Origin: a virus
Strand: one strand, 5' to 3'
DNA length: 62,911 nucleotides
Virus record (IMG/VR): IMGVR_UViG_3300045988_079349
The notes beneath the pieces were generated by a model. The model had not been told where the DNA came from, did no database searches, and saw only the letters and a list, made by a program, of their open reading frames with translations. The position numbers and the translations under genes are program-made. Positions 18,295-57,472 of the stretch are shown here, one piece after another (position 1 is the stretch's first letter; every line of letters starts with the position of its first letter).

Positions 18295-19008
18295 ATGAAG
18301 AAAACACATTGTATTTATATGCATAAAAACAAGATTAATGGGAAAATTTATGTTGGTCAAACATTTTAGGATAATCCTAATGCTAGATGGCAAAACGGGC
18401 ATGGATATATAAAACAGCCAAAGTTTTTTTCAGATATTATAAAATACGGATGGATAAATTTTGAACATATTATTTTAGAAGAAAACTTAACGCAATAGGA
18501 GGCGAATGAAAGAGAAAATTTTTGGATTCAATATTTTGATAGTTGTAAAAATGGGTATAATACAATTTCAGAGAATAATAGATCAGAGGTATAGAAAAAA
18601 ACAACAAATAGCCTTATTGTATGCTTAAATACAAATAAATCATATAAAACATTAAAAGAAGCGTCTTTGGATACCGGAGTTGATCCATCTGCAATTTCAA
18701 GATGTTATGGAGGATAGCGTAAAAGTGCAGGAATAATAAATGGTGTTCCTGGGTTTTGGATTTTAACAACATCGGATAAAAGCCTTATTAATAAAATAAA
18801 AAATAATTATAATGATGCTATAAGAAAGATAGTTTGTGTTGAGACTTCTAGAATTTTTAATTCTTTAGATGAGGTAATAGAATATTGTGGATTGCCAGTA
18901 TCTTCTTCAAATAGAGCAAGATTAAAAAGTATTTTAAAATATAAGACAAATTCTTCTTTTGGGCGAGATAAAGAGTTAAATATAAAATTACATTGGAGTT
19001 ATCTATAA
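18295..19008 (+). CDS. GIY-YIG homing endonuclease (I-TevI-like, with NUMOD DNA-binding repeats); 4 in-frame TAG codons
   Basis: MKKTHCIYMHKNKINGKIYVGQTF[TAG]DNPNARW...FEHIILEENLTQ[TAG]EANERENFWIQYFDS...; NUMOD-like IVCLNTNKSYKTLKEASLDTGV and IVCVETSRIFNSLDEVIEYCGLP; TAA stop. Confidence 0.7.
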
Positions 19009-19040
19009 TTTGTAATAAGATTTGACAATCTAGTTTTTTT

Positions 19041-20126
19041 TTGTTATTATATGAGTATAAAAAGGAGATGAACCAGTATATGATAAAATTAGACTATACG
19101 ATTGAATCTCCCGAAGAGCGCAAGGCGCTTGTCGAAAAAATAATCGCAGAAAATCCTGATTTAACTCCAGGTTATTTAGAAGTATTAGCAGATTATTTAG
19201 TTCTATGTATGGAGAAACAAGAGAAGAAAGAGAAGAATATATTGACTGATAACCGAATGGCTACCGTCAATAAACGAGAATGTTCTTTTGAGGGACTCGC
19301 TTCATAGATGGAAAATGGCGAGGATGGCATTTATGGTTTAATGTCAGATAATAAAAATGTTATATTTTAGCCAAAGATTTCTATTACACAAAAAGATTTA
19401 GATTCTATACCATGTTTAAAATAGTTAAGAGAAACCATTAATGCTTGGGAAGGTGCCTTGAAACGCGCCGCGGGAACGAAACAAGCCTATATGATGAAAA
19501 AAGCATTAATAGAAATGCGAAAAGATTAGTATATTATTAAATAGGCATATCAAAAGCCTATAGTTCCTTGTAAGCTAACAAGAAATACGAGAACACATAT
19601 ACCTCTTGATGATGAAAGTTATCTTAATGGATAGGAAGTAGTCGTTAAAGGTATTTCCTTAATGAATCCAAATGTAGTTTCTGCTATTTTATGCAATTAT
19701 TCAAAATTAAAAGAAGATAGTTATGATTAGTTCGATGGAGATACATGGTATCTAATTCAAGCATTTGAAGAGATATGCGATAAAGCTCTTGAGGATTTTC
19801 CAATCTATTTACGAATTGTTGAGTTAAAAATTGATAAAAAGCAGAATAATGAGATATAGGAAATATTGAGTGAAGAGTTTGGAAAAACATATAGCGTGGA
19901 ATATATCTCTAGTTTATGGAGAAATAAAATTCCTAAATTAATTGCCGAAGCTGCTTTAGAGGATTTTTTATATTGGTAGTATAAAAATAGAAATTACCCA
20001 ATGAAAAAATGTTCTAAATGTGGGCAATTAAAGCCAGCCCATAATCAATTCTTTTCAAAAAATAAGACAAGTAAAGATGGATTATATTCAATCTGTAAAC
20101 ACTGTCGTAATAAGAAAAGGGGTTGA
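19041..20126 (+). CDS. hypothetical protein (~361 aa) with a C-terminal zinc ribbon; about 12 in-frame TAG codons
   Basis: Extends the track ORF 19041..19307 through TAGs to a TGA; C-terminus CSKCGQLKP...SICKHCRNKKRG. Confidence 0.5.
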
Positions 20127-20131
20127 TTATA

Positions 20132-21304
20132 GTGAGTCATTATTGTAAAAAATGTGGTAAGACTATGGATGATACATAGTTTTATACATCAAAGAATATA
20201 GAAAAATATCCTCCAGATGGAAAGATGGATATTTGTAAAAAGTGTCTTACTATGCACGTAGATAATTGGGATCCAGAAACTTATAAATGGATTTTATAGG
20301 AAATTGATGTTCCATATATCAAAGAAGAGTGGAATGGCTTATTGGAGAGGTATGGAAAAGATCCAAAGAAGGTTACTGGATTAACCATTATTGGACGCTA
20401 TTTATCCAAAATGAAATTAAAACAATGGAATAAGTATACTTGGGCAGATACAGAGGCACTAGAGAAGGATTCAACCGAGAAAAAAGTTCTTAATATGAAA
20501 GCTCAAGGATTTACAGAGGATGAAATTCAAGAGCAATTAGCTATTGATAGAACTCCACCAAAACCGAAAGAATTGGAAGATGTTTAGGCTCCAGTTGGAA
20601 CTCCAGAATATCAAGATCCAGAAGAGGAAGAAGACGACTTTAGTGATTAGCTAACAGAAGAAGATAAATTAATGCTTCGTCTTAAATGGGGTCGAGGCTA
20701 TTCTTGGGAAGAAAGAGTAAGAATGGAGTAGCTCTATAAAGATATGATGAGTTCATATGATATTTAGGGAGCTGGACATAAAGATACTCTTATTATGGTA
20801 TGCAAGACTAGTTTAAAAGCAAATTAGTTAATTGATGCTGGAGATATTGATGGCTTTTAGAAAATGTAGAAGGCCTATGATAGCTTAATGAAAAGTGGAA
20901 AGTTCACTGCCGCCTAGAATAAAGGAGAATCCGGCGAATTTGTTGATTCTATTGGTGAGTTAGTAGCATTATGCGAGAAAGAAGGGTTTATTCCTAGATA
21001 TTATACTGATGGGCCATAGGATAAAGTAGATAGAACTCTTTAGGATTTGTAGCAATATACGCATACTCTAGTTACAGAAGAAATGAATCTTGGTAATATG
21101 ATTGAAGCTTCTTTGAGAGAAATCGTGAAAGATAAAGAGCGCGAAGCCAATATTGATGTTGAAGATAGTGATGAGGATGAAGATTTATTTAATTATGAAC
21201 ATCCAGAACTGACAGAAGAAGATTATCAAGAGTATGAGGATATGAAAGAATCTGAAAGAGATAAAGATGAAGAAATGTTAAATAGCATACTAAAGGAGGT
21301 TTAA
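20132..21304 (+). CDS. hypothetical protein (~390 aa): N-terminal zinc ribbon, acidic C-terminal tail; positional candidate for the small terminase/packaging protein
   Basis: GTG start; CKKCGKTMDD...CKKC; in frame with the track fragments 20342..20587 and 21083..21304; about 17 TAGs. Confidence 0.4.
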
Positions 21305-21306
21305 TA

Positions 21307-23052
21307 ATGGCGCTAAAAGATTTATTAAACCTCTCGAACAATAATAAAAAAATTGGACTCTCAGAAGAAAGAGTTCGAGCTATAATTCCAGTTGCAAGAT
21401 AGTATGTAGCATTTTGGAGAGAGTATCCAGATATGTTTATTGATTTCTTGTAGACTGGTGGAGATGAAACTAGGAAAAAAGAAATTAACTTTTATTTTTA
21501 CTAGAGAGTTTTCTTGCGGGCCGCCATGCGATATAAGTATGTATACATGGTATTCCCCCGTGCTTATTCTAAATCATTTCTTTCTGTAATGGTGCTTATG
21601 TGTAGATGTATTTTATATCCTGGATGTAAGTTATTCATTACTTCTGGGGGAAAAGAACAAGCTGCGGGAATTGCTAAAGAAAAAGTCTAGGAAATATGTA
21701 ATGCAATCCCTGCACTCCAAAGAGAAATTGATTGGAGACGAGGCAAGACGCAGGAAGGAAAAGATTATTGTAAATATATCTTCAAAAACGGTTCCTACTT
21801 TGATAACGTAGCAGCTAGAGAATCCTCTCGTGGTAAACGTAGACATGGAGGACTTATTGAGGAGTGTGTCGGCGTAGATGGAGATATTCTAAACGAAGTT
21901 TTAATTCCTTTGATGAACGTTGATAGAAGATGTTTAGATGGCTCTGTTCATGAAGAAGAAACACTTAATAAATCCTAGATTTATGTTACTACTGCGGGAT
22001 GGAAGAATACATTCCCTTATAATAAACTTATTACTCTCCTTGTGCGCATGATATTAGAACCAGAAAAGAGTATTGTTATGGGCGGAACATGGAGAATTCC
22101 TGTGTTAGTAGGATTGCAATCCCGCAATTTCGTATAGGAACTAAAATAGGACGGTACTTTTAATGAAGCTTCATTCGATAGAGAGTATGAATCTAAGTGG
22201 AGTGGAACTGTTGAAGATGCTTTCTTTAATGGAGATGCTTTTGATAGAAGTAGAAAACTCCTTTAGCCTGAATATGAATCGTCTGGAAGATCTTCTGCAC
22301 AGGCTTATTATGTTCTTTCTGTTGATGTAGGTAGAAAGAAATGTCAATCTGTTGTTTGTGTCTTTAAGGTAACTCCTTAGTCACAAGGACCTGCTATAAA
22401 GTCTTTGGTAAATATATATACTATGGACGATGAACATTTTGAAGATTAGGCAATTAAGTTAAAGAGATTATATTATAATTATAAGGCTAAGATTATTGTA
22501 ATCGACGGTAATGGCCTTGGCGCCGGATTGATGGATTATATGGTTAAACCTTAGATAGTACCTGATACCAATGAAGTTTTTCCTGACTTTGGTGTAGCTA
22601 ATGATGAAGATGGTGAGTATAAGCGGTTTAGGACAGAAAACACAGAATATGATGCCATCTATGAAATTAAGGCTAACGCTCCTATTAATACCGAGGCGCA
22701 TAGTAATGTTTAGACACAATTAAGAGCGGGAAAACTTAGATTTTTGATTGATGAAAAAGTTGCAAGAAATAAATTGCTTGGTACTAAAAAAGGTTAGGCT
22801 ATGAAACCAGAAGAACGGGCAGAATATTTAAAACCGTTCACTTTAACTTCTATATTAAGAGAAGAAATGCTGAATTTGCGAGAAGAAAATGAAGGCGTGA
22901 ATATTATTTTGAAACAAGCAAATAAATCCGTGCCTAAAGATAAATTCTCTGCGCTTGAATATGGGCTGTATTATATTAAATAGGAAGAAGATAGTAAACG
23001 CAAGCGTAAAAGTAGAAGATTTTCAGACTTTATGTTTATGAGCGAGGTGTGA
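21307..23052 (+). CDS. terL: terminase large subunit (~581 aa); about 14 in-frame TAG codons
   Basis: AAGGAGG RBS; an ATPase region with a Walker-A-like PRAYSKSFL motif and a C-terminal RNaseH-like nuclease motif IVIDGNGLGAGLMD; in frame with track 22801..22983. Confidence 0.7.
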
Positions 23053-23428: not shown

Positions 23429-25057
23429 TTGTTAAAGAGTAGACAAGAAAGTATTAGAGCCAAAGGTTTTGATTTATTAAATCAAGACGTTACTCGCTAT
23501 TAGCAGCAAGAGGAAGAAGATGACTTAGATTATAAGAGCATTGATTATGCTAAGATGCGGGTGGGGCTTCGCTCGGTAGATGATGCGCTTATTAATCTAG
23601 GTACATATAAGAAAATAAATAGAAATTATGGAGATAAGAAGTTCGTATTAAATGCTATTTATAAGCATGATTATAGAACTCTAAGAGAAATCTCTAATTA
23701 TTTCTATGAAAGTAGCGGTATATATTACAGATTATGTAAATACCTAGCTTTCTTATACAGATTTGATTGGTATATAACCCCATATATCGTAAGCGCGCAG
23801 AAAGATAAGGAGAAGTTATTAAAAGACTTTTCTAAAGTATTGCTTTATCTTGATAAATCTAATATAAAGAGAATGTTTGGTAATATATCATTAGATATCA
23901 TCAAAGAAGGGGCATATTATGGTATAATTGTTGACTTCGGAGATAGGTTTGCCATTTAGAAGCTACCTGCTTCATATTGTCGCAATAGATATTTCCAAGG
24001 CCCTAATCCTATTGTTGAATTAAATCTTGAGTTTTTTGATGTTTATTTCCCAAACCCACAGTATAAGGTTCAGATATTAAAGATTTTTCCTCAAGATATA
24101 TAGAAGGCTTATATTCTTTATAAGTAGGGGAAATTAAAGGGAGATTACCCGGGGAGTACAACTGTTTGGTATCCTCTAGATCCTAGTGTTTCAGTTAAGT
24201 TTAGCTTAAACGATAATGAATTTCCCTTTCTTGCGGGAGTTATTCCTTCTATTATTGATTTGGATTAGGCGCAAGAATTGGATCGTCAAAAAACAATGTA
24301 GCAACTATTGAAAATCATCATTTAGAAGTTGCCTCTTGATAAGAATGGTGATTTAATTTTTGACGTTGATGAAGCCAGAGATATTCATAATAACGCAGTT
24401 GCAATGCTTAAAAGAGCTATTGGAGTAGATGTATTGACAACTTTTGCGGATATTGAAAAAATTGATACAAAAGACAATAACTCCAATACAACAACCGACG
24501 ATTTGGAAAAGGTTGAACGTACAGTTTACAACAATTCAGGTGTAACTCATAATTTGTTTAATGCCGATGGAAATATTGCTGTAACAAATTCTATATTGAC
24601 TGATGAATCTAGCGTTAGAGATATACCTCTCATGTTTACAGAATTACTAAATAGAGTGGTAGAAAAATTCAATCGCAAGAATCATTATGAATTTAGAGCT
24701 GAGATGTTAGAAACAACATAGTTTAATTATAAAGAATTATCAAAGTTGTATAAAGAACACGCTCAGTTAGGATATTCTAAGATGTTGCCACAAATCGCTT
24801 TAGGGCATTCTCAATCAAGCATTTTAGCTACATTAACGTTTGAGAATGAAGTATTGAACTTGGCGGAGATTATGATTCCTCCTATGAGTTCTAATACCAG
24901 AAGCGGAAAAGATTTGGGTAATAATAATTAGTCATCTAATACTAATTCTTAGAATAAATAGACAAGTTCAACTAACAATAATGGAGCCGGAAGGCCAAAG
25001 AAGGAAGATGGCGAAAAGTCTGATAAGACAATAGCTAATCAAGAAAGTTCGTCATAA
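23429..25057 (+). CDS. portal protein (putative, ~542 aa); about 13 TAGs
   Basis: GGGAGGTGA RBS then TTG; gene order terL-nuclease-this-scaffold-capsid; in frame with track fragments 23555..23959, 24329..24721 and 24746..24931. Confidence 0.5.
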
Positions 25058-26338: not shown

Positions 26339-27028
26339 ATGGCTAAGAGTTCTAAAAGATTAGGTAATGCTACTTTTGTCCAATATGGATATGGTCAAGT
26401 AGAACCAAACCATCTTTCCGCTCCAAGAAATGGTCAGGTATATGCTCAGCTTCCTGCTGCTAGCACAATCACCCTTCTTGAGAATGGTCAATTCGTAAAG
26501 TATGACTATGCTAAGGGTGTATGTGATTTTAGCACAGAGGCTACTTCTGGTGCTTGGATGATGGTATTCAATGAGGTAAAAATTTATAGAGATCGTGAGA
26601 CTGATGCCGATTTTGCTATGATTAAAGATAACTATAACGCTCGTGTTTATAGCCCAATCGGACAGACCGTTTCTACACTCGCTACCATTAATGACTATAC
26701 TGGTGAAGCTGTACGTGAAGGTAGTAACGTAGCATATAAAAAGAATATGGAAACATTTACTTATCCAGCTTTGATGCCAGAAGGAACTAAAATGGTTCCA
26801 CGTGTAATTAAGATTAGTATTGGTGATATTTGGACAACTAATACTATTAAGGCTGATGCCGGTTCACTTGCTGTTGGAGATCGTTTAAAGATTGGTACTG
26901 ATGGTTATTTAACCGAGGATACTGAATCTTCTGCTAAGGGTGGAGATTTAGATCCTATCTTTACAGTAGTAAAAGTATACACCATGCCCGATCTTCAACC
27001 CGGTGTAAAAGTACAGCGTGTAGGTTAA
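26339..27028 (+). CDS. TAG-free structural protein (229 aa), possibly head decoration/auxiliary capsid protein
   Basis: ORF track; lies between the scaffold and capsid genes. Confidence 0.45.
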   Translation: MAKSSKRLGNATFVQYGYGQVEPNHLSAPRNGQVYAQLPAASTITLLENGQFVKYDYAKGVCDFSTEATSGAWMMVFNEVKIYRDRETDADFAMIKDNYNARVYSPIGQTVSTLATINDYTGEAVREGSNVAYKKNMETFTYPALMPEGTKMVPRVIKISIGDIWTTNTIKADAGSLAVGDRLKIGTDGYLTEDTESSAKGGDLDPIFTVVKVYTMPDLQPGVKVQRVG

Positions 27029-27047: not shown

Positions 27048-28100
27048 ATGTTAGATAAAGCTAATTTACTTAGTTTAATGAAGACTGTCGCCAATGCAAA
27101 TCCTTCTGGTACCTATAGCTATCAAGGAGAATCCTTTAGCTACGACGCTTTGAACACCACTTTGCGCAATGAGTTAAATGAGCTTGTTGGCACAGATGAA
27201 CTTTATAGAGAAAATAAACATACTCTATTCTCTTTAATTGAGCAAACTATGGATGAAGTTGTTCCTAATCGTTTACTCAATTCTTATGGCAATTTTGCCG
27301 AGATTAGAACTTTCGGACAGGGAGATAAACCTGTATTTACTCGTAGAACTGGACTTACCCGTGCTAAGCAATTCATCACTCGTGTGGGACTTGCTGGCGT
27401 ATACGAGACCTTTAAGCTCGGTTCTGAGAGCTTCGAAGTTGGTACAAGTGCTATCGGCGGAGCTGCTCGTATCGGATTCGAGGAGTTCCTCGACGGAAGA
27501 GTAAACTTCGCAGAACTTACTCAGATTGTAACTGAGGGTATGCAAGAGCTTATTTATAGAGAGATTGCTCAAGCTCTTATGGGTTCTATTAATCAGCTTC
27601 CCGCGGCAAACCGTTGTGCCGTTGCTGGTTTTGATGAAGCTACTATGGATTATCTTGTAAATACTGCTAGTGCTTATGGTCAGCCCACTATTTACTGTAC
27701 TCGTGAGTTTGCAGTAAAGATGATTCCAGACAACGAGGCTTGGATTTCTGATAACATGAGAGATCAGTATTGGGGAACTGGATACCTTGCTAACTACAAG
27801 GGAACTAGAGTGGTAATTCTACCTCAAACCCTTGAGGATGAGACTAACTCTAGAAAGATGATTGACCCTGGTTATGCTTGGGTTATCCCCGGTGGAGCAG
27901 ATACTCGTCCTGTTAAAGTTGCTTTTGAGGGTACTACTCACGTGCGCGAGCGCGATGATAACGACGACTGGTCTCGTGATATTCAGGTTTACCGCAAGGT
28001 CGGAGTTGGCGTAATGATGGCAAATAACATTTTCTCTTACGTTGATACTGAACTTCAAGGTGAGCTTGATAATACTAACCCAAATCCAAATAATGGTTAA
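27048..28100 (+). CDS. major capsid protein (putative HK97-fold), 350 aa, TAG-free
   Basis: ORF track; position after the scaffold gene; strong terminator immediately downstream. Confidence 0.6.
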   Translation: MLDKANLLSLMKTVANANPSGTYSYQGESFSYDALNTTLRNELNELVGTDELYRENKHTLFSLIEQTMDEVVPNRLLNSYGNFAEIRTFGQGDKPVFTRRTGLTRAKQFITRVGLAGVYETFKLGSESFEVGTSAIGGAARIGFEEFLDGRVNFAELTQIVTEGMQELIYREIAQALMGSINQLPAANRCAVAGFDEATMDYLVNTASAYGQPTIYCTREFAVKMIPDNEAWISDNMRDQYWGTGYLANYKGTRVVILPQTLEDETNSRKMIDPGYAWVIPGGADTRPVKVAFEGTTHVRERDDNDDWSRDIQVYRKVGVGVMMANNIFSYVDTELQGELDNTNPNPNNG

Positions 28101-28102: not shown

Positions 28103-28140
28103 AAAAGGGGATAGGGAAATATCCCTATCCCCTTTATTTA
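28103..28140 (+). terminator. intrinsic terminator after the capsid gene
   Basis: AGGGGATAGGGAaatATCCCTATCCCCT followed by TTATTTA. Confidence 0.6.
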
Positions 28141-28161
28141 TTGAGAAAAAGGAGATATAAT

Positions 28162-28698
28162 ATGAAAGATAAGTGTATTGTTTATAATAAAAGTGCGGGC
28201 CGCGCGGTATATAAACTGCCTGAGCTTGGTGTACGTCGTATGTTCTATCCAGGTGAGCATAAAGAGATTAGTGTATCTGAGCTTGAAAAGTTGGTTCAAA
28301 CACCCGGAGGCCGCAAGCTGATTTATAATTATCTATTAATTGATGATAAAGAAATTATTGAATATCTTATTAATGGGAAAGTTGAACCAGAATATTGGTT
28401 AAAAGAGAAAGATATTGATTCGTGGATGCAGTCATGCTCTTTGGATGAATTCAAGGATGCTCTTGATTTTGCCCCTGATGGGACAAAAGATTTGATTAAG
28501 GCTCACGCGGTTTCTCTTCCTTTGAATGATATTTCAAAGCGAGATGCGATAGAAAAACAATTAGGTTTTAACGTTACTAAAGCGTTGGAATTAACCGCGG
28601 ACGAAGGAAAAAATTCTAAAAATGAGGTTAAGCCTGTTAGAAGAGCATCGGTTGCAAGTGATGATACTCCAAAGCGTAGAGTAACTATATCCGAGTAA
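28162..28698 (+). CDS. hypothetical protein (178 aa from the internal ATG), TAG-free
   Basis: Track ORF 28141..28698; AAAAAGGAGATATAAT RBS before MKDKCIVYNK. Confidence 0.5.
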   Translation: MKDKCIVYNKSAGRAVYKLPELGVRRMFYPGEHKEISVSELEKLVQTPGGRKLIYNYLLIDDKEIIEYLINGKVEPEYWLKEKDIDSWMQSCSLDEFKDALDFAPDGTKDLIKAHAVSLPLNDISKRDAIEKQLGFNVTKALELTADEGKNSKNEVKPVRRASVASDDTPKRRVTISE

Positions 28699-33239: not shown

Positions 33240-33276
33240 TAAAGGGAGGACTTAATGTCCTCCCTTTTTCTTTTTA
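33240..33276 (+). terminator. intrinsic terminator
   Basis: AAGGGAGGACttaaTGTCCTCCCTT followed by TTTCTTTTT. Confidence 0.6.
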
Positions 33277-33293: not shown

Positions 33294-34730
33294 TATGGAT
33301 ATTGATATTTATGATTATGTTTAGCGTTGGTCTATTAACTATATTGTATATCACAGTAGCCATTTGAGAGAATATGGCGACGTAGAATCAGCGAATACCT
33401 TATTCAGCGCATAGTATCAATAGGCAGTAAATAAAGCATAGACCGCGGGAATTGAGGCTTAGATCTCCTCAATTCAAGAATAGATGCAGCTAAAAGCGCC
33501 TTCCGCAGCCAGTGGATTAAAGATTCTAAGTGATCTAGAGATAGGAACCCTATTAGACTCTACTCTTGATTAGATTGCCGCCGGTATTAATGAGGGTATT
33601 GAATTAGCTGGTGGATAGGTAGATTTTGAAAACTATAATACTATATTGCAATAGGTTGGAAGCTTTAATAACTTGTTATCAACTGGTACACCGGAAATAT
33701 AGAGAGTGAATGATTTCTTTAGGTTACTTATATCAGCTTTAACGAAAGCGAATATGATAAATGTTAATGTTCTTGATGCTTTAACATAGATTGGAAGATA
33801 GCTAATAGGAACTAGCTTTTAGATAGATTAGGCATAGCAAAGTTATGTTATGGCTGTTGGCAAAGGAGATATAAATATCGCAAAAGATGTAATAGATTCT
33901 TTAAACAGGGCTGTTACTCGTTTAAGTGAATAGGGATCAGTAAACTCTCGTTCTTTTGCTAATACTATTGCTTATATATTTAGAAGGGTTATTGGAAATT
34001 AGATTAGTTAGGCGATAGTTGCAGAGGGTATATCAATAGGAGTTAATACCGCGGATAGTATATTAGATAAGGTAATCGCGCAATCTGGTGGAAAATTGCG
34101 ATGGGTTGATAAAGGATAGAATAATGTCTCTAAGTCTAAAGGTACTACAAATATATTTAATAATGATACCTTTAGTTTGCAAGTAACCAAGGGCAATCAG
34201 ACTTTTAATATAGAGATAGGGACAAATGTAAATGCAAGATGGCAAAATAAGAAAATGTCTTAGAATAAAATTTCTGCTTCTTCAAGTATGAATGTTGGAG
34301 AATATTTTTCTGGTTAGCCAGAGAAGTATCTTGCTTATAATATGATTGCTCATAGATATACTGGAGCTGATTTTGAAGAATCGTTTAATAATATACGGGC
34401 TTCTGTTGCAGCGTCCTTCTTTAATTAGTGGATTCAGTCTAGTGAGTTTAGTTCATAGAAGGGTCATTTAGGATAGTTTATTATAGTTAATGGTAGAGTA
34501 TTTTCAATCTAGCGAATTATTAATAATATCTGTGATGATATTGTTAGAAATAGTGCTCATGAAGTGGTTTCTATTGGTGGAGAAGGCGCTCTGGGTAATA
34601 AGTGGTATGGCAATTCTGGAGCAAACATATTAGATGCAATCACCCGTAGTAATATAGTCAATGGAGTTATAAATAAATTAACTATTGCAGCAACTTTAAA
34701 TAATAATATACTATCTAAATACGCATATTA
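33294..34730 (+). CDS. hypothetical Gln-rich protein (~478 aa) with about 40 in-frame TAG codons
   Basis: Single frame from ATG to TAA with TAG as the only internal stop; lies between the tube and chaperone genes. Confidence 0.45.
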
Positions 34731-44234: not shown

Positions 44235-44285
44235 TAGGGGAGATTTTCTCCCCTATTATTCCCTATGAGTAAAAGGAGGAAGAAT

Positions 44286-47200: not shown

Positions 47201-48206
47201 AAAGTATAATGGTACTGTAAATGCGGCCAATGCTGAAATTTCAGGAACTATTTATGCTTCTTCCGGCAAGATAGGTGGTACAAAAACTGGGTCTAATGGT
47301 TGGACTATTGAAACCAATAGACTGTATAGCGGTTCTGGTTCAACAAGAGTCGAATTGAATAGCCAGTCGCCTACTAATACATCTACACCTACAAATAATA
47401 ATGATTTTGCTATGTGGGCTGGTAGTGCAACTGCTTCAAGCGCTAAGTTTTCTGTCTCTAAAGGTGGATTAATTACTGCTAAATAGGGAAATATTGGAGG
47501 ATGGATTCTTTCTTCTAATAAACTTACTAGCGATAATTACAGAACCGGTATAGCAAGTTCAGGAACTTATCGTTTCTGGGCTGGAGCTAGTTCTAGCAGC
47601 ACAGCAGATAGACCTGTTTTCTCTGGTTCTTCTTATTTTTATGTTACCAGTTCAGGTGAGATGTAGTGTAAAAATGCAACGATTAATGGCTCTATTTATG
47701 CAGACGATGGCGAAATCGGCGGGTGGACTATTAGTCCAAGTAGAATCTCTGGAGGCGGAACCACTCTATATTCAAATGGTAGGATTGTATGTGAGGATTT
47801 TGAATCTGATAACGTAGATATTAGTGGAGATATTAATGCGACTACTTTAACCTGTGATAATGGCGAAATCGGCGGGTGGACTATTAGTGAAGATGGATTA
47901 GAGAATGGTACTACAAGATTGTTTAACGGCTTAGTATAGACAGAATAGGTACAAATATATTATAATGATCATGGTCGCTGGAATACTTATCTTGGATTTT
48001 TAGGATATGTACCAGGTAGAGATGATGATGGTGTTACTGACAATATTGGTATTAGGACACTTGATTAGGGATAGAGTATTATTCTTTAGTCTGCAAGAAA
48101 TATAGCTTTAAATGCTGAGGGAGCAGGTATCTGGGTAAATGCAGAAAATTTCAACATGAATGTACCAAAATCTGGATAGAAAGGTATTTATGCCTAGTTT
48201 GCATAA
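44286..48206 (+). CDS. large tail protein (~1,306 aa; distal tail/tail-associated protein with repeated GEIGGWTIS-type motifs), about 60 TAGs
   Basis: In frame with track 46188..46415 and 47124..47486; repeats KIGGTKTGSNGWTIE, GEIGGWTISPS, GEIGGWTISED. Confidence 0.55.
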
Positions 48207-48219
48207 GGAGTGATTATAT

Positions 48220-48960
48220 ATGGGTTCTGTAACCTTACACTCTCCCTCTTATTCTAGTGTTGGATAGAGATATGCTTCAATAAGTTGTACTGCGGTAGGA
48301 TGGGTATATCCAAGCGATTCTGGAACAACCACAACCGGAGATAGTAAAAATGGTTCTAGAACTACTATCTCTTATAGTAATACAGTATGGAGTTGGAGTT
48401 TTAGTGATGGAGGAACTTCTAGCTCTAAAGAACCAACTCATACCTTTACTGGTTTAACTGCGGGCAGGGCAAATACGGTAAGAGGGACGTTGAGTGCTAG
48501 ATGCACAAAAACCACTACTGTAACTAGATGGTCTACCCATAGAGAAGAGGTAGGAAAAGACGAGGAAGGAAATCCAATTTATGAAGATGTAACAACAACA
48601 ACTGGTCCGACTACATCTAGGACAACAGTTAGCTTGGGGTCTGCATCAGATAGTGTAACTGTATATACACAACCAACTGGTTTTTCTTTTGGGTGTAGCC
48701 CGGGAGATTATATAGCAGATTATGCCACCGCAGCTAACTGGAATGAATTAGCCGATTAGGTTGGTAAATATAAAAGTTGGCGCAATCAATCAAGTTAGTA
48801 TTCTTCATATGATTATTTGAAAGTTTCAAGTGGAGATTGGATAACCGCAAGCATTTATAATTCTATGGCATCTGCCTGCGGGACTTCAAGAGTTACTGCG
48901 GATGAAACCTTGATTAGTGCAGCATTATTTGAAGCATTGGCGGATGCGGTTTCGCCATAA
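48220..48960 (+). CDS. hypothetical tail protein (~246 aa), 3 TAGs
   Basis: In frame with track 48490..48759. Confidence 0.45.
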
Positions 48961-48980
48961 GAGAAAAAGGAGTTTTAATT

Positions 48981-49286
48981 ATGAAAATGTCAAACAAGGA
49001 TATTTTAGAAATAACCGAGGGATTAAGTAATATAGTTCAAGATCAATCATGCCTTCCCGCAAGTGTGTCATATTCGGTGATAAGAAATTTAAAAATTCTT
49101 TCTTCTATTGCTGAGGATATTTATAATGAGCGCAAGAAAATTATTGAAAGGTATGGAGAACAAGTAGACGATATTACTTATTCAATCCCAGAAGAGAAAA
49201 GAGACGCGGCGAATAAAGAACTAAATAACTTATTAGCTGTAAATACTAGCGTTCCATTAGCTACCTTTTCTATTGATATTTTGTAG
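48981..49286 (+). CDS. hypothetical protein (101 aa), TAG-free
   Basis: ORF track; terminator follows. Confidence 0.5.
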   Translation: MKMSNKDILEITEGLSNIVQDQSCLPASVSYSVIRNLKILSSIAEDIYNERKKIIERYGEQVDDITYSIPEEKRDAANKELNNLLAVNTSVPLATFSIDIL

Positions 49287-49337
49287 GGATATGATATTCC
49301 TTTAAAGGTTATGAATATTCTATACTTTATGGTGGAG

Positions 49338-49378
49338 GCTGACGAGGAATAAAACTCGTCAGCCTTTTGGCCAATTAT
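49338..49378 (+). terminator. intrinsic terminator
   Basis: AGGCTGACGAGgaataaaaCTCGTCAGCCT followed by TTTGG. Confidence 0.55.
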
Positions 49379-49437
49379 CTTTATTAATGATATAAGATTT
49401 TTTAAATATCTTAGATGAGAAAAAGGAGGCGTTAACT

Positions 49438-52227
49438 ATGCCAATTAGTATTTACCCGCCTACTCTGTAGAGCACATAGCCAGCGTTTCTAGCCAGTGTG
49501 AATGTATATCAAATCTATTTTACCTTACAGTCAATTACATCTTTTAATGATATAGGACATATATAGGTAAGAATAGTGCGTTAGTCGAATAATAAAAGCA
49601 TTGTTAATACAAATCAATACCCAGATGGGACAATCTATAAAGCACCCTCTGCTATTGGTTCCCTGGGCAATTAGTATTTTGTATCAATCAATAAAAATGA
49701 ATTGTTCGAATCTTGGTAGCCAGGGTATTTATATAAAGTGCAGATGCGCTTTGGAATTAATCCTATGTATACCTCGGTAGATGAATTTGCAACATGGAAA
49801 CAATAGCAAATAGATGAAGGAGCTTTCTCTGAATGGTCTACTGTAATGGTAATTAAAGCGATAGATACTCCGACTATTATTATAGAAAACGACGAGGCAA
49901 AGCGAGAAGATGTTATATCTACAGAACGAGTAGAAGCAACTTTAACACCGCTATTTATTGGCAGTTACAAGATTGAATCTAGTAGTAATGAATTATTGGA
50001 TAAATATAAATTTGATTTATACAAAGGTTCTTCGTAGGATCTCAGTGATTTAATCGAAAGCTCTGGGTGGATCTAGCATAATGGCTCTATTAATAATACA
50101 GATACTCATAGATTTAAAACAGTATTAACTAATAGTGAAGATTATACTGTTGTGTACTCTATTATTACCGTCAATGGTTATGAGGGAGAGTCTGATTAGT
50201 ATAATTTTTCTGTTAGTCGAACTTATCTAGGTGATTTAGAAGGAGTATCTATAAGAGTTGAAGATAGCGATATATATTGCAAAGAGAATGGTTGTATAAA
50301 GATTTTTTGCACAGCAAAAGATGGATTAAGTGGAAGTTATGTAATAACTAGAAGTTCAGAGAAAGATAATTATTAGATATGGGAAGATTTGAAGTATCTT
50401 AAATTTTCTAATTAGGTTTTGAACGATTCACTAATCTATACCGATTTTATTATTGAAAGCGGAATTAGATACAAATACGCTATATAGCAAGAGAACTCCG
50501 CAGGATTGCGGACTTCCTAGGTATATGAAACCTCTAACCAAGGTCGTAGTGTTGATTTTGAGCACAGCTATATTTATAGAGATGGAGTATAGTTAAAACT
50601 ATCACTCAATCAAACCTTATCCAGCTTTAAACATACCACTTTAAGAAGTAAATAGGATACTTTAGGAGATAAATACCCTCATTTAATTTAGAATGGTAAT
50701 GCTTACTATGCAGAATTTCCTATTTCTGGTTTGATTAGTTTTTAGATGGATGAATATTAGACATTCTTCTCTCTAGATGATGATGGCCTTTATTATAATG
50801 GCAAACTTGCAATCCCAGAAGATAAGTTTACTATCAAAAATGTGGTTAGAGGAAAATGTCAAGAGAGATAGACAACTCATTCAGAAGTCTCAACTAATGA
50901 GAGTAAATTATCTATTTCAACTGATTTAACAGATGATAATGTTTTCATTGAAAGAGCTTTTAGAGAAAAGGTAGAAGAATTTTTAAATGATTTTAACTAT
51001 AAATTATTTAAGTCTCCAACCGAAGGGAATATAGTTATAGGCTTGCTTAATATTTCTTTGACTCCGAATAATACGGTCGGCCGCATGCTCTATTCTTTTT
51101 CTGCTACGGCATATGAAGTATTAGAGAACACCATAGAAAATTTAAATGAAGTTAATATAATTGATATTGGTGAATTTGAGAGTTTAGCAAGCGAAGATAG
51201 AATAAATTCCTTTGGGCAGATAAGCGGAATTTATGGTCGAAATATAGACTTATACGCAAAGATAAGAGAATAGGAAGAGGTTAGCATAGGTGGAGGGTAT
51301 AAACTAAACTTAGTTTAGGTTACTGATATCCTAGTTGAACAATACCCAAAGATAGATCTAACCGCGTAGCTACTAGAATTAGAAGCTCTTAGAGCGGAAG
51401 CCGCAGGTAATGAAGAAGATACTTCTGAGTATGATAGATAGATTGAGGAATGTGAAAATTTAATTCTTGCTCTTGATGGGCCTGAATCTGCGACTATTGA
51501 AATTAATGTTAATGGTTCAAGGATCTTAGTTGCACCAGGTAGAATGTATCATTTAAGTGAGAATGTTAATTCTCTATCTCTATCTGCATCAACAGTTCCT
51601 ATTATTGTGAATTATGTTTGTCAGTTAAATTAGGTTGAAGATGTTTCAGTGGGAGTTGTTTCTGCTATTGATGCTTCTCGTATTTGGGGTTAGATTTCTG
51701 GAATATTTACAGGAACAGATGGTGTTTTAAAGTTTTATAACTATGATTATAAGAATAGTGACACATATCGCATATTTAGTAATGTTCCTGCGAATATGGA
51801 AAAATTTCTAGTTAGGGATAAACAAGGAGATATTATTGTTGATAATACGACTTTTAATCTATATAAAACGGTAAATATCTACGAGATAATAAAAGAAGAG
51901 ACACAAAAGCAAGTTGAGCTTATATATAATACACACTTTGAATTAAGTAGCGATGGACAGCTAACAGACGGAGAGATTTATTACACTTTTAGTGATATTA
52001 CTTTGTTCGATATAGAAGCAGACGAAGGAACTACTATTCTTCTTAGCTCAAATGCTGATGGAAGTAATCCTATTACTGTAAAAATCGGTCCCACAGGGAG
52101 ATATACACTTAACCCATTGGATAATATGATTAAATATATCGCTCTAGAAAGCGCTCAATTCTGTGTAATAAACTATAAGTGTTTAACAAATCAAATGCGT
52201 ATGAAGGTGGAATAGTATTATGTTTGA
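49438..52227 (+). CDS. large tail/baseplate structural protein (~929 aa), about 45 TAGs
   Basis: In frame with track 49846..50037, 51043..51273 and 51796..52215. Confidence 0.5.
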
Positions 52228-54124
52228 TTATTTAAACGATATGGAATTTCTTACTGCCCTTGATAAGTTAAACATTAAAACCCATTATGCGAAAATTATT
52301 TTGCTTTCTTTCGATGAAAAACCTATTAGAGAGATACAAGGTCGCATAACAGCAGGAAGTTTAAGTGTTAATGGTTCATCTTCAGTGCGCAGAACAATTA
52401 GTTTAACTATGCTAGCCGATGGAAATAATAGCGATATAGAGAATATAGATAACGAGATTTCGATAAACAAAAAGGTTAAAGTGTTTGTTGGATATAATAA
52501 CCCCTTAAGATCTTATTCTAGTTATGGAGATATAATTTGGTTTCCTTGCGGACTATTTGTCTTGTCTAATGCATCAATAGCAAGATCGACTTCTGGATGG
52601 ACAATTTCTATAAATGGAAAAGATAAGATGTGTTTATTAGATGGAACTGCGGGAGGTACCTTTCCAGGTTCTATTACCCTCCATGAAAGTTACATATAGA
52701 AGAATGATGGAGATATAGAGATTGTATATCCGACCATATTCCAGATTATATATGAAGCGGTAAACCACTGGGGAGGGGAAGCTATAGAGAATATAATTAT
52801 TACAGATATAGAGGAAACCTGTAAAATGTTGGTTAAGTATATTGGTGACAAACCAGTATATTTTAGTAATAATTATGAGAGTATGGATTTCTCTCCCAGC
52901 TCAGACTTCCCGCATATGGTAAGCTATGGATAGGATGCTGGATATAAAGAAACAGAATTTACATATCCCGGTGAATTGATTTTAGATGCTGGTGATACTG
53001 TAACTGCATTACTAGATAAGATAGTGGATGTTCTTGGAAATTTTGAATATTTCTATGATATAAACGGTCGTTTTATCTTTTAGGAGATAAAGAACTATCT
53101 TAATACTGGAAGCCCTTTAACTGAACTTACGCCAGCAAACTATGTAAAGAGTTATAATAATGCTAAATTCTTATATTCTTTAACCGAGCTTGATACCACG
53201 ACTGCGATAACCCGCAGTCCAAAGTTTGATAATATTAAAAATGATTTTTATGTTTGGGGTAAAAGAAAAACTACATCTGATGTAGAAGTGGACATTAGAT
53301 ACCATTTAGCTATTGATACCAAACCTATTATAGATTTGGCTGGGTATTATATGTGGGCTATTAGTGATAAAGAAACTGGACTAATAGTAAGATATGATTT
53401 TAATAATATAGCTAGTGATTACTCTGTATCTGGATATGAAACAAAATTAATCGGGTCTCCATGTGATGAGTGGCGAGAAGAGCTGTACCGTAGAGCATTA
53501 AATGCGCAGGTAACTAATAGCGTATATGATAACTACTATGATTCCGAATTAATCGCGGAATGGCGTAATTTATATGATCCATTGAATGAGAAATGGGATG
53601 AATACGATCATTGGAACCCTGATGTTTTTAACAATCCAGAAAATTTGAACTATTGGTTAGATTTTATAGATACGGGTTCAGAGATGGGAAAATATTCAAT
53701 AAATGAAATAGGCAGAAGGACTAAAGTGGTTAATGGTTCTGATATAACTTCCGTATATAATATGGAAGCCCCTGATATTATTTTTATTGAAGGACTTGAT
53801 TAGGACTTGATAGCAGAATATCGAGGGATAGGTTAGAGATTTTTTGTTCTTACTTCTGAATACTATGATTTATTTTCAATAAGCTCTACTAATGCGAGTT
53901 GTTTTGATAAGATTAGAGAAATGTTGTATTAGAATTTAAATTATAATACAACCATATCTATTACTTGCTTACCAAAGTATTATATGGAGCCAAATAATAT
54001 TCTCTATATTGAAGATAAAGATAGCGGCATTAGTGGAAATTACTAGATAACTCAGTTTACTTTGCCTCTTGCTTATAATGGAACTATGAGCATTACTGCA
54101 ACGGAAGTATTAACGAGAGTATAA
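52220..54124 (+). CDS. baseplate/tail hub-like protein (~634 aa), about 12 TAGs
   Basis: In frame with track 52220..52699 and 53288..53803; C-terminal LYIEDKDSGISGNY.ITQFTL resembles baseplate proteins. Confidence 0.5.
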
Positions 54125-54140
54125 GGAGGAGTAGGAGATA

Positions 54141-54731
54141 ATGCCAACTGTTGGTCAAGTATATTATAATGTAATAGATAATAACAGTGGTAGCTACGTC
54201 TCTAGTGGGTAGAATATATTTAGTGATATTATTGCCTAGGTAGGAGCCTCTCAATTTAATAAAGTTGGGGTATAGGCTCCTGCCGGCACAAAAATAGTTA
54301 TGAATGAATCAAAGACTATTATGGTTGGTAGAACTGGAATATATGAACTAGATGATGACATAGCTATTACTAATATGTATTTTATTAGACCTAGAAAGTA
54401 TGAAAAAGATGAAGAAGCCTCCTAGTAGGCGATTGAGTAGGGAACTGAAGGAATGTAGGCTGCGGATAAAAAACGAGCAGACGATTTGGAACAATTTTAT
54501 AAAGAAAATCCAGTTATGCCAGACCCGGATACAGATCCAGAGGGATATAGAGCTTACTGGGATTCATATAATAATATTTAGACTACCTATATAGAGGCTT
54601 ATTAGACAGCATTAAGTTTGTATAATTAGGGTGTAAACGGTATATATGTGTTACCCAATCCTGATAATATTGATGCTCCAGAGAACTATTAGGATTTGTA
54701 TAATGTTATTATTGATTTTATCTATGTATAA
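54141..54731 (+). CDS. hypothetical tail protein (~196 aa), about 14 TAGs
   Basis: GGAGGAG RBS then ATG. Confidence 0.45.
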
Positions 54732-54745
54732 GGAGGTGTCAAACT

Positions 54746-56656
54746 ATGGAAAGTTTCTATGGAGGACCTAAAGGTAGAGATTTTGATATTAAGGAAATCT
54801 TTACTAGCAAATATTAGATGGATAGAGATTTATCAAAGGGTTGGACATCTTCTATCTTCCCAGGTGATCTCGTTGTTGTATCATATGGTTTGCCAAGCGA
54901 TACAAACTATGATATTTATAAGAATGAAGATTTATAGAATTATGGGAAAAGCTATAACTCTACTCTTTGGCAAAAATGTTATAATGATAAAGATGGAAGC
55001 GGATCTGCGGGTGGCCTATACTATAAGATGATAGCTTCCATGACTGGTAATACACCAAGAATTAGCTTAAATGACACAGAAGTCTTGGATGCAGATGAAG
55101 ATCCAAACGTGGTTTGGGATAATACCGATCTAGATAGACTTTGGCTTACTTTTCAGTTACCATAGAGTTAGAATATCTAGTTAGGAGAGACTACTATTCT
55201 GGATTGTAATGAACTTCCAGAAGCGTCTTTAGACACGACCGATATAAATAATCCTAGCTTAAAGTTGTCCTTACCGCAATCTTAGGTAATTAATACTGCA
55301 TTAGTAGAATTATTAGATGTAGGTGAAAATCCAAGAGTATCTTTAGAAGTTTCAGGAGATTATTCTATCAACAAACCGGCAATTAAGTTTTATCTACCTG
55401 TATCTTAGTCATTATAGGAAGGTATTACTACAACTTTAGATGCTAATGAAAAACCTAGATTTGAAATAAATTTTGATGATATAAACAATCCAATTATTAA
55501 TTTCTTCTTGCCTCAAAGTTAGGTGATGGGAGATCCAGAAACTACGGTAGTGGGACCCGAGGAGAATCCATCTGTAGTAATGGATGATTCGAATATTAAT
55601 GCGCCAGTATTGAAATTTAGTTTACCAGAAGCGGTTAAATTTTACTATGGCGAGTTACTAGGCGAGAGAACAGAAGGAACTTACGAAGAAACTAATGATT
55701 CTTTTGTGGATTATAATGTTGGTGATTATTACATTAATGCACCAACCGGTTTTATTTATAAAGTAATCAATAAAACTGGAACCACTTGTACTTTTTAGTA
55801 TATAGCTTGTATTTAGTCTCCTCTTCCTACTATAGAAGTTACAGAATTAAAGCCATATACAGATAAAGGTTCTGAGTTTGAGCCGACAATTCCTACGGTT
55901 ACAAGGGAGTTTACTAACGAAGAACAAACTGCCTGGAAGCTAGTTTTTGGGCTGCCATCCGCGGTTAAATACACTACTTCATTTGCTTTTGTTGGAATTG
56001 ACGAAACTGGCTCTGTATCCAATGAAATTACAGCAGATGACACTATAAATATTGATTTTAAGATTCCTAGAGGATCAAAATTATACTCTGGAACTTAGAT
56101 TTCTGATTCAACAACATCTACTGTTATTGAGGGTGCGAAAGCTGGAGATTTATATTTAAATACAGAAACCGGAGATATATATGAATTAAATTCTTCTGGT
56201 ATATGGGAGAAAAATTCCGGCAATTTAAAAGGCCCTGTTGGCGAGGCTCTTAATATCGTTAAGAGCTACACAATAAATGAGACAGACACGCTAAAAGATT
56301 CTTTATAGAATGGTGTAGATTATATTGAAGAAAACTATGATGGAGAAATTAGCGCGTAGGATATTTTCTCTATTACGTGGGTAGAATATGAAACTAACCA
56401 AGAAACTTCTTACTGGTATTATAAAGCCGCAGATGGAGTGTGGGGAAGAGTCTAGCTAACTGGCGGTATTTCTAACCTTATTGATAATAGTTATAATAGT
56501 GAAGATGGTGGAGAAGTAACAAATAAAACTTACAGTATTCACTATATTAATAGCTTAATAGGTGGAACTATTACAAATAAGGATAGATAGACATATTCTG
56601 CAACATAGATTGAAGAATTACTATCTTGGGGAAGTTTTAGTGATTTAATACCTTAA
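54746..56656 (+). CDS. tail fibre / receptor-binding protein candidate (~636 aa) with repeated LP(Q)SQ beta-strand motifs, about 22 TAGs
   Basis: In frame with track 55523..55798; repeats FQLP[TAG]S[TAG]N, LSLPQS[TAG]V, FFLPQS[TAG]V. Confidence 0.5.
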
Positions 56657-56689
56657 TTTATATTTAGAGAGTATAAAGGAGGGCCTAAA

Positions 56690-57472
56690 ATGGCTTTATT
56701 TAAGATTTTTAAAGGCGCAGAAGAGGATCTTAATGATGTACCTCTTCATGAAGGATACGCCTATTTCTGCGAGGACACAGGAAATTTATTTATTGATGTA
56801 AGTAATATAGAGGGCGAACGTCTACAGGTCAATGCCTATGCTGCTCAAGTTTTAAAGAATAATGTTACTGAAATTGATATTGACGACATTTTTCTTAAAA
56901 ATATGACTGCTACTGTAGCGTAGGGTGGAACTGGACATGATACATTAACTGTTAATGCTTTGCTAGTAGGAAATGGAACAGAAGCATTAAAAATGATTGA
57001 AATTGCAGCCGGCAGTTTAGTAATCGGAAATGCGGAAAATGGTGTGGCTGGTTTACAAGGTGCTGGTGCTTTATACGCGATTACTGCGGGTGCACCTACA
57101 TTTGGTACACTTCCAATCTAGGTTGGAGGAACTGGAGGCACGACAGCCGCGCGAGCCAGAACTAATTTGGATGTATATAGCAAGTCAGAAACAGATAACC
57201 AAATTACTGGTAGCACATCTGTAGCTTATACAACCACTCTTGCCGCGGCATCATGGGTATTGAACGGAGATATGTATACATAGACATACTCTAATACTGC
57301 TTTAACTTGCGGAAAAGCGGGAAATGTGCCACCTATCATTACTTATACTTCTAATTTAGAGGAATATAGTAAAATTGATCATGCTGATGCAACTGTAGGA
57401 TCTGGAATCACTTTCTACACAAAAGATAAACCAGAAAGCGATATTGCTATTGTTATTATTGATGTAAAATAA
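56690..57472 (+). CDS. tail fibre protein (~260 aa), 4 TAGs
   Basis: Track 56690..56923 extended through TAGs; motif GGTGHDTLTVNALLVGNGT. Confidence 0.5.

What the first reader, a model, noticed from the sequence alone, without database searches (positions are those of the whole stretch)
18295..57472. TAG is a sense codon in most late genes (code-15-like reassignment), with an all-or-nothing pattern gene by gene
On the plus strand from 18.3 to 57.5 kb almost no long ORFs appear in the standard code. When TAG is read as an amino acid, single frames open into full-length terminase large subunit, portal, scaffold, a 2,932-aa tape measure protein, baseplate and fibre proteins. Every one of these ends at TAA or TGA, never TAG. 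Track fragments inside each gene share one phase. The minus-strand folD (17063-17854), the DGR RT and DGR target 1 behave the same way. In contrast, the capsid gene (27048-28100), the tail tube gene (31843-33237) and the gene at 26339-27028 have no TAG at all. So do nearly all early genes. Recoded genes carry TAG at roughly 3-9% of codons. This bimodality is the signature of phage-encoded TAG suppression (TAG to Gln) in a standard-code host. It is thought to time or limit late-gene translation.
Basis: partly seen in the sequence, partly recalled or inferred. Interest (0 to 1): 0.9.

Follow-up and report, generated by a model that had tools for sequence, protein, structure and literature searches.

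The report
Gut phage reads TAG as glutamine
This window is part of a roughly 148-kb gut phage that reads the stop codon TAG as glutamine in most virion genes, a trick already described for its relatives, while keeping TAG out of its most abundant virion proteins.

Summary
On the + strand of 18,295-57,472, ORFs of at least 100 aa cover 28.9% of the DNA in the standard code. They cover 99.2% when TAG is read as sense, and only 31-38% when TGA or TAA is.

TAG sites align with Gln in relatives 7-21 times more often than other sites do. This holds for the standard-code Enterococcus phage EF1 (P = 8.5e-11). No other residue is enriched more than 2-fold.

The window has no tRNA. A conspecific contig (98% nucleotide identity) carries one tRNA(CUA) about 26.6 kb left of the window. 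No release-factor motif was found in about 140 kb.

The gene-by-gene pattern is real. Twenty-two late genes carry TAG at 0.8-5.6% of codons, not the 3-9% claimed. Five carry none (38 expected, P = 3.5e-17): major capsid, tail tube, and the genes at 26,339, 28,141 and 34,795. This depletion holds across 28-36 orthologues. Strong hairpins follow three of these genes.

The phenomenon is known. The closest described relative is phAss-1, of the NCBI "Caudoviricetes code 15 clade", and public gene calls for this phage already use code 15. The conserved TAG-free set is the only modestly new point. Host code and timing remain untested.

The parts
18295..57472 (+). Late (virion) gene block of 27 back-to-back genes. 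All end in TAA or TGA. Twenty-two carry in-frame TAG: 309 TAG in 11,450 codons.
17063..17854 (-). folD-like gene (263 aa) with 6 in-frame TAG. One TAG aligns with the Gln of the FolD 'ASQxYV' segment in two of the three solved structures shown.
18295..19008 (+). GIY-YIG homing-endonuclease-like gene with 4 TAG. It is present in some conspecific contigs and absent in others.
19041..20126 (+). Sigma-factor-like gene (phrog_5767, E = 4e-40) with 9 TAG. All 31 recoded-clade orthologues carry TAG; the standard-code EF1 orthologue has none.
21307..23052 (+). Terminase large subunit candidate (581 aa, 14 TAG). PHROG TerL hits are weak. It matches the syntenic region of phAss-1 at 42% identity over 96% of its length.
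23429..25057 (+). Portal protein (phrog_2739, E = 1e-81) with 11 TAG.
26339..27028 (+). TAG-free 229-aa protein just upstream of the capsid gene, possibly a capsid decoration protein (weak fold hits only). None of its 36 orthologues has a TAG.
27048..28100 (+). Major capsid protein (Pfam YonB in public calls; 51% identical to phAss-1). TAG-free here and in 33 of 36 orthologues.
28104..28135 (+). Terminator-like hairpin with a 14-bp stem, 4 nt after the capsid gene stop.
28141..28698 (+). TAG-free 185-aa gene of unknown function.
31843..33237 (+). Tail tube protein (Pfam YomU_Tube; phrog_2729). TAG-free here and in all 31 orthologues.
33241..33267 (+). Terminator-like hairpin with an 11-bp stem, directly after the tube gene.
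33295..34731 (+). 478-aa gene with 25 TAG (5.2% of codons); function unknown.
34734..35398 (+). Self-contained unit: a perfect sigma-70 consensus promoter (34,734-34,762), a TAG-free 176-aa gene (34,795-35,325) and a 14-bp hairpin (35,364-35,398).
35436..44234 (+). Tape measure protein, 2,932 aa with 103 in-frame TAG (Pfam PhageMin_Tail in public calls).
44265..57472 (+). Distal tail genes, each with 1-33 TAG. Only 52,220-54,124 ('tail protein') and 56,690-57,472 ('tail fiber') get a family label.
58616..59833 (-). DGR reverse transcriptase (RVT_1, E = 2e-16) with 6 in-frame TAG.
60851..62656 (-). DGR target 1 (Big_3 and DUF6273 domains) with 6 in-frame TAG. Its variable repeat lies at 60,865-60,966.

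Best explanation
The window is about 43% of a roughly 148-kb SPbeta-like siphophage that is abundant in public metagenomes and related to the human-gut phage phAss-1. In this phage TAG is an ordinary glutamine codon. In the recoded late genes it supplies 55% of all Gln-like codons.

Shown:
- A single tRNA with anticodon CUA lies among early/middle genes, about 26.6 kb left of the window, in a conspecific genome.
- The genes with sigma-70-like promoters at 5.9-11.7 kb, and most replication genes, contain no TAG.
- Most virion genes, a sigma-factor-like gene at the head of the late block, and the endolysin (outside the window) contain TAG.

Inferred, following the Borges et al. model:
- The host uses the standard code and can translate the TAG-free genes directly.
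- The TAG-containing genes become translatable only once the suppressor tRNA has accumulated.

Within the late block, TAG has been kept out of five genes: major capsid, tail tube, and the genes at 26,339, 28,141 and 34,795. Three of them are followed by strong hairpins. My inference is that the two known high-copy proteins (capsid and tube) show that TAG decoding costs yield, so selection purges TAG where protein demand is highest.
For: - Only TAG-as-sense opens the frames: 99.2% coverage against 28.9% in code 11.
- Recoded genes give full-length family matches.
- TAG sites align with Gln at 26-42% against 1.7-3.5% for other sites: P = 8.5e-11 for standard-code EF1 and 1e-57 for L020. This matches the behaviour of CAA/CAG sites, and no other residue exceeds 2-fold enrichment.
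- Between relatives, TAG and CAA/CAG interchange freely.
- CAG is depleted in recoded genes. CAG/(CAA+CAG) is 0.21 there and 0.47 in TAG-free genes, as expected if TAG arose from CAG.
- TAG positions are spread uniformly along genes.
- The tRNA(CUA) scores 60 bits against Rfam tRNA. It has a canonical cloverleaf, the anticodon loop CU-CUA-AA and an encoded CCA. It sits in contig IMGVR_UViG_3300045988_075249, 98.1% identical to the window, and is conserved in two further relatives.
- Public gene calls on conspecific contigs are already full length with TAG read through.
- TAG-free set: 0 TAG observed against 37.9 expected. Across the clade these five genes carry 8 TAG in 41,510 codons; ten neighbouring genes carry 1,503 in 110,752.
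- Hairpins follow the capsid gene, the tube gene and the 176-aa gene.
- The endolysin has 10 TAG.
Against: - There is no protein-level evidence.
- The tRNA(CUA) is not in the window. It was found in conspecific contigs, not in the same assembly.
- Its amino-acid identity is not shown. It is no closer to the phage's tRNA-Gln genes (0.69 identity) than to its Leu or Met tRNAs.
- The host is unknown. MAG bins name Oscillospiraceae and Eubacterium, which is weak evidence, so the host's code is assumed rather than tested.
- A tape measure gene with 103 TAG needs about 98% read-through per codon for a 10% yield. That is full reassignment, not leaky suppression, yet no release factor or RF1 antagonist was identified.
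- About 6.7 kb of the genome was never scanned.
- The function of three of the five TAG-free genes is unknown, so the 'high-copy' argument rests on capsid and tube.
Confidence: 0.85

Rival explanations
1. The TAG-free late genes are not dosage-selected. They are kept in the standard code because they must be translated when no suppressor is present, either before the code switch or from a prophage.
For: - The 176-aa gene at 34,795-35,325 has its own perfect sigma-70 promoter and a terminator, like a moron.
- Borges et al. report standard-code integrases in recoded prophages.
- A resolvase-family gene lies just right of the window.
Against: - Capsid and tube proteins have no known role before assembly.
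- No comparable promoter precedes the capsid or tube gene.
- The resolvase-like gene itself carries 4 TAG.
Confidence: 0.15
2. The TAG-free genes were recently acquired from a standard-code phage and have not yet accumulated TAG.
For: Their G+C is higher than that of their neighbours: 0.39-0.42 for capsid, tube and the 229-aa gene, against 0.31-0.36.
Against: - The same genes are TAG-free in 28-36 orthologues spanning 29-100% identity, including phAss-1, with conserved synteny.
- GC3 barely differs (0.24-0.33 against 0.23-0.28), so the G+C difference reflects amino-acid composition.
Confidence: 0.03
3. No code switch takes place: the host itself reads TAG as Gln (native code 15).
For: The host is unidentified. 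The very high TAG load (103 in one gene) would be easier to carry in a host without RF1 activity on TAG.
Against: - The phage carries its own tRNA(CUA).
- Promoter-proximal early genes and most replication genes avoid TAG.
- No bacterium with code 15 is known (general knowledge).
- The hosts predicted for recoded gut phages use the standard code.
Confidence: 0.03
4. TAG encodes another residue (for example pyrrolysine, which is ARAGORN's label for a CUA anticodon), or the interrupted genes are pseudogenes or assembly artefacts.
For: ARAGORN prints 'tRNA-Pyl' for this tRNA.
Against: - That label follows from the anticodon alone.
- Only Gln is enriched at TAG sites.
- The tRNA has an ordinary cloverleaf.
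- The same exact capsid protein, from the same gene block, occurs in 1,964 blocks of the public assembly collection.
- Only TAG, never TAA or TGA, interrupts the frames.
Confidence: 0.01

Closest known systems
Phage phAss-1 (OQ749652) and the proposed Phassvirus group; NCBI 'Caudoviricetes code 15 clade' (Babkin et al. 2023, PMC10607447)
   Same: - TAG read as Gln in terminase, portal, tape measure and fibre genes.
- tRNA(CUA) placed within a large tRNA set.
- No dedicated aminoacyl-tRNA synthetase reported.
- Tape measure of about 3,000 aa and a genome of 130-150 kb.
- Syntenic SPbeta/EF1-like head and tail module.
- Capsid gene TAG-free.
   Different: - Only 51% capsid identity, and no megablast match to any record in the phage collection.
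- One tRNA(CUA) found, against three in phAss-1.
- Carries a DGR with two targets. Conspecific contigs also carry a tmRNA and a ROOL RNA.
- I did not check phAss-1 for these three elements.
TAG-recoded crAss-like and Lak phages and the gut 'alternatively coded' clades (Borges et al. preprint 10.1101/2021.08.26.457843; Peters et al. 2022, PMC9523058)
   Same: - In-frame TAG concentrated in structural and lysis genes.
- Suppressor tRNA carried by the phage.
- Early and replication genes compatible with the standard code.
- TAG-to-Gln confirmed by metaproteomics in crAss-like phages.
   Different: - A different phage lineage (SPbeta-like), with a presumed Bacillota host.
- No RF2 gene, unlike Lak phages.
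- The passages I read do not describe a conserved TAG-free set of high-copy virion genes.
Enterococcus phage EF1 and SPbeta-like phages (standard code)
   Same: Same head and tail gene order, with homologous capsid (36-38% identity), portal and tube proteins.
   Different: EF1 has no in-frame TAG in any aligned gene. It serves as the standard-code outgroup showing Gln at 26% of the window's TAG sites.

Membership tests
Code-15 (TAG to Gln) recoded phage | In-frame TAG, and only TAG, interrupts conserved genes; reading it as sense restores full-length ORFs | tested here: met
   Coverage is 99.2% with TAG as sense and 28.9% in code 11. The TGA-sense and TAA-sense controls give 31% and 38%. FolD, portal and RT match their families at full length.
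Code-15 (TAG to Gln) recoded phage | TAG positions align with glutamine in homologues | tested here: met
   Gln is enriched 7-21 fold at TAG sites, with P between 8.5e-11 and 1e-57. The profile equals that of CAA/CAG sites.
Code-15 (TAG to Gln) recoded phage | Phage genome carries a suppressor tRNA with anticodon CUA | tested here: met
   None is in the window. There is one in a conspecific contig at 98.1% identity, at L054:13,466-13,540, and it is conserved in L056 and L059.
Code-15 (TAG to Gln) recoded phage | Host uses the standard code, so the code is switched during infection | not testable with these tools
   The host was not identified. MAG bins name Oscillospiraceae and Eubacterium. 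TAG-free early genes are indirect support only.
Code-15 (TAG to Gln) recoded phage | TAG is not used as a terminator | tested here: inconclusive
   All 75 public gene calls end in TAA or TGA, but the gene caller reads TAG as sense. A few small early ORFs may end at TAG.
Code-15 (TAG to Gln) recoded phage | Peptides with Gln at TAG sites | not testable with these tools
   This needs proteomics. It has been done for crAss-like phages only.
phAss-1 / EF1 / SPbeta-like phage group | Homologous, syntenic head and tail module (YonG, terminase, portal, YonD, YonB capsid, YomW, YomV, YomU tube, giant tape measure) | tested here: met
   Pfam labels come from public calls.
phAss-1 / EF1 / SPbeta-like phage group | Member of the proposed genus Phassvirus (nucleotide identity above about 80% to phAss-1) | tested here: not met
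   There is no megablast match, and capsid identity is 51%. It is a different genus-level lineage within the wider group.
Diversity-generating retroelement (side feature) | Reverse transcriptase plus template and variable repeats that differ only at template adenines | tested here: met
   RVT_1 match at E = 2e-16. All 20 (VR1) and 16 (VR2) mismatches fall at template T on the + strand, which is A on the coding strand.

The most novel reading that the evidence does not exclude
TAG decoding in this clade is efficient enough to read 103 TAG in one gene with a single tRNA(CUA) and no release-factor gene. Yet it is costly enough that selection has kept TAG out of the highest-copy virion genes (capsid, tube, and perhaps a decoration protein) across the whole clade.

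That combination would mean two things. First, TAG load acts as a codon-level dosage partition among late genes. Second, the phage has a still unidentified way of neutralising host RF1.
Probability: 0.3. Interest if true: 0.5.

Novelty: new member of a known kind. Interest (0 to 1): 0.3.

Why it matters
For annotation, the window must be read with table 15 or most virion genes fall apart. Public pipelines already do this for the phage.

Biologically it adds one abundant, heavily recoded lineage to the phAss-1/SPbeta-like group. Its exact capsid protein occurs in 1,964 blocks of the public assembly collection.

The lineage offers a clean natural experiment. Standard-code relatives (EF1), lightly recoded relatives and heavily recoded relatives share the same gene order. 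A fixed set of late genes stays TAG-free throughout. That contrast could be used to measure what stop-codon reassignment costs, and to search for how RF1 is neutralised.

Tried and rejected
- tRNA search in the window: ARAGORN with and without introns, and Rfam, found nothing. I then walked along a conspecific IMG/VR contig, using all 8 viral scans. About 6.7 kb stayed unscanned.
- A tRNA-like gene with a 42-57-nt insert in its anticodon arm (L051:5,340-5,458) was considered as the suppressor. No CUA anticodon could be derived from it; ARAGORN's intron model gives GCU.
- Theta (HDV-like) ribozyme next to the suppressor: Rfam shows nothing there, but the family may not be in Rfam.
- Release factors: a GGQ-motif scan of the window, 64 kb of the contig and both flanks found no RF-type site. 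This is a motif scan, not a profile search.
- Suppressor identity by similarity to the phage's other tRNAs was uninformative.
- PDB sequence searches with the capsid, tube, 229-aa and terminase proteins gave no hits.
- The AlphaFold model of the 229-aa protein was poor (pLDDT 54). Its fold matches to capsid decoration proteins are not significant, E = 0.18 or worse.
- Pfam and PHROGs gave no label for most distal tail genes.
- Whether the early ORF 8,955-9,179 ends at TAG: the TAG lies inside the next gene's -10 promoter element and is TGG in a relative, so the question stays unresolved.
- The 290-294-kb contigs carrying this phage look like two genome lengths rather than prophages. This could not be checked.

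Full report
**Observation**

The window is 62,911 bp with 36.7% G+C. In the standard code it has few long ORFs: the longest is 465 codons. Reading TAG as sense gives a 2,937-codon ORF and back-to-back ORFs along the + strand from 18.2 to 57.5 kb.

With TAG as sense they cover 99.2%. The two controls give 30.6% (TGA as sense) and 37.8% (TAA as sense).

The reopened frames encode recognisable proteins:
- FolD matches solved FolD structures end to end, E = 1.7e-29.
- The portal matches phrog_2739, E = 1e-81.
- A sigma-factor-like protein matches phrog_5767, E = 4e-40.
- The DGR RT matches RVT_1.
- Public calls on conspecific contigs label YonG, YonD, YonB, YomW, YomV, YomU_Tube and PhageMin_Tail, the SPbeta-type head and tail set.

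Those public calls are already full length with TAG read through. Existing pipelines therefore treat this phage as code 15.

**What TAG encodes**

I translated TAG as X and aligned the window's proteins with the syntenic regions of eleven relatives. These range from 98% nucleotide identity down to phAss-1 and the standard-code Enterococcus phage EF1.

Window TAG sites pair with TAG or with Gln, and their substitution profile matches that of true CAA/CAG sites:
- In EF1, 17 of 66 aligned TAG sites are Gln (25.8%), against 3.5% at other sites (P = 8.5e-11).
- In closer relatives, Gln is enriched 19-21 fold, with P down to 1e-57.
- No other residue is enriched more than 2-fold.

Within the late block, TAG supplies 55% of Gln-like codons in recoded genes. 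CAG is depleted there: CAG/(CAA+CAG) is 0.21, against 0.47 in TAG-free genes. That is what a CAG-to-TAG origin predicts. TAG positions are spread uniformly along genes.

**Decoding machinery**

The window has no tRNA gene. The exact capsid protein occurs in 1,964 blocks of the public assembly collection, on contigs of about 147-149 kb.

I walked along IMG/VR contig IMGVR_UViG_3300045988_075249, which is 98.1% identical to the window. The walk found:
- A tRNA array starting about 9 kb left of the window, with 29 ARAGORN-called tRNAs, a tmRNA and a ROOL RNA.
- Exactly one tRNA with anticodon CUA, at contig position 18,859-18,933, about 26.6 kb left of window position 1.

This tRNA scores 60 bits against the Rfam tRNA model. 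It has a normal cloverleaf, the anticodon loop CU-CUA-AA, a mismatched 1-72 pair, G73 and an encoded CCA. It is conserved in two related species. It lies on the strand of the early/middle genes.

No release-factor-type GGQ motif occurs in the roughly 140 kb examined. The amino acid carried by the tRNA is inferred from the alignments, not from the tRNA itself.

**Gene-by-gene pattern**

Of the 27 late genes, 22 carry TAG at 0.8-5.6% of codons, with a mean of 2.7%.

Five late genes carry none: 26,339-27,028, the capsid gene, 28,141-28,698, the tube gene and 34,795-35,325. At the rate seen in the other genes, 37.9 TAG would be expected in them (P = 3.5e-17). All 40 of their Gln codons are CAA or CAG (P = 1.3e-14).

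This is not a recent accident. Across 28-36 orthologues at 29-100% identity, these five genes hold 8 TAG in 41,510 codons. Ten neighbouring genes hold 1,503 TAG in 110,752 codons. These loci are not independent samples.

GC3 barely differs between the two sets, which argues against foreign origin.

Strong terminator-like hairpins sit directly after the capsid gene, the tube gene and the 176-aa gene. The 176-aa gene also has a perfect sigma-70 consensus promoter.

**Mechanism**

Shown:
- TAG is a Gln codon in this phage.
- A conspecific genome carries a tRNA(CUA).
- Promoter-proximal early genes and most replication genes avoid TAG.
- Virion genes, the sigma-like gene at the head of the late block, and the endolysin (10 TAG, outside the window) depend on TAG decoding.

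Inferred:
- The host uses the standard code, so these proteins can be made only after the tRNA accumulates. This is the model of Borges et al..
- TAG is purged from the highest-copy proteins because decoding it costs yield.

One tension remains. A gene with 103 TAG needs about 98% read-through per codon for a 10% yield. The code change must therefore be nearly complete, yet no RF1 antagonist or RF2 gene was found.

**Comparison with what is known**

Stop-codon recoding in gut phages is established. The nearest described relative, phAss-1, was published as a TAG-to-Gln phage with tRNA-Sup(CTA) genes and a 3,149-aa tape measure. The authors noted divergent recoded relatives.

The window's phage is a different lineage in that wider group: 51% capsid identity and no nucleotide match. 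It is a new member of a known kind.

The passages I read do not mention a conserved TAG-free set of late genes. Cook et al. report that table 11 still finds the capsid gene in 56.9% of code-15 phages. That fits capsid genes often being TAG-poor.

**Caveats**

- There are no protein data.
- The host is unknown.
- The suppressor lies outside the window, in a conspecific assembly rather than the same one.
- About 6.7 kb of the genome was not scanned.
- Three of the five TAG-free genes have no assigned function. The 229-aa protein gave only a weak hint of a decoration fold.
- 'Never ends at TAG' is partly true by construction.

Noticed in passing
window 58,616-62,656 and 1-514: A complete DGR. It comprises an RT (58,616-59,833, minus strand), a template repeat (60,142-60,243) and a small basic ORF (60,275-60,769) that might be the accessory protein. 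Target 1 carries VR1 at 60,865-60,966. A second variable repeat lies at 1-80, in a small target gene that runs off the left end about 60 kb away. All 36 TR/VR mismatches fall at template adenines.
   Followed up: partly
window 5,900-11,750 (minus strand): A family of repeated promoter-like elements (TTGACA, spacer, TGnTAnAAT) sits upstream of small TAG-free genes. They lie in a 5-15 kb island of 44-52% G+C, against 31-38% in the late block. This is probably the early region read by host RNA polymerase.
   Followed up: partly
window 18,295-19,008: The GIY-YIG endonuclease gene at the head of the late block is present in one conspecific contig (L006) and absent from others (L002-L005, L007). This suggests a mobile homing-endonuclease insertion. 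It carries 4 TAG.
   Followed up: partly
window 28,104-28,135; 33,241-33,267; 34,734-34,762; 35,364-35,398: Strong hairpins follow the capsid gene, the tube gene and the 176-aa gene. A 12/12 sigma-70 consensus promoter precedes the 176-aa gene, which gives it a moron-like layout inside the tail module.
   Followed up: partly
L050:10,054-10,649 and L050:7,487-7,802 (conspecific contig, left of the window): The phage's tRNA array contains a ROOL RNA (350 bits), placed between its two tRNA-Gln genes. It also contains a tmRNA with tag peptide DNDYFENYLAA.
   Followed up: no
L051:5,340-5,458: A tRNA-like gene (Rfam 50.9 bits) has intact acceptor, D and T arms but a 42-57-nt insert in the anticodon arm that forms two hairpins. 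Its anticodon and function are unclear.
   Followed up: partly
window 8,955-9,179 (minus strand): A small early ORF whose first in-frame stop is TAG. That TAG lies inside the -10 element of the next gene's promoter and is TGG in a relative. TAG may still act as a terminator for some early genes.
   Followed up: partly
L069:14,683-16,089 (conspecific contig): The endolysin combines Phage_lysozyme2, Amidase_2 and SLH domains and carries 10 TAG. The S-layer-homology domain hints at a host with an S-layer.
   Followed up: no
ENA contigs of 290,702, 293,444 and 294,660 bp (L006, L007, L048): Three assemblies carry this phage on contigs about twice the genome length. They may be head-to-tail dimers rather than prophages in host DNA. 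This was not resolved.
   Followed up: no
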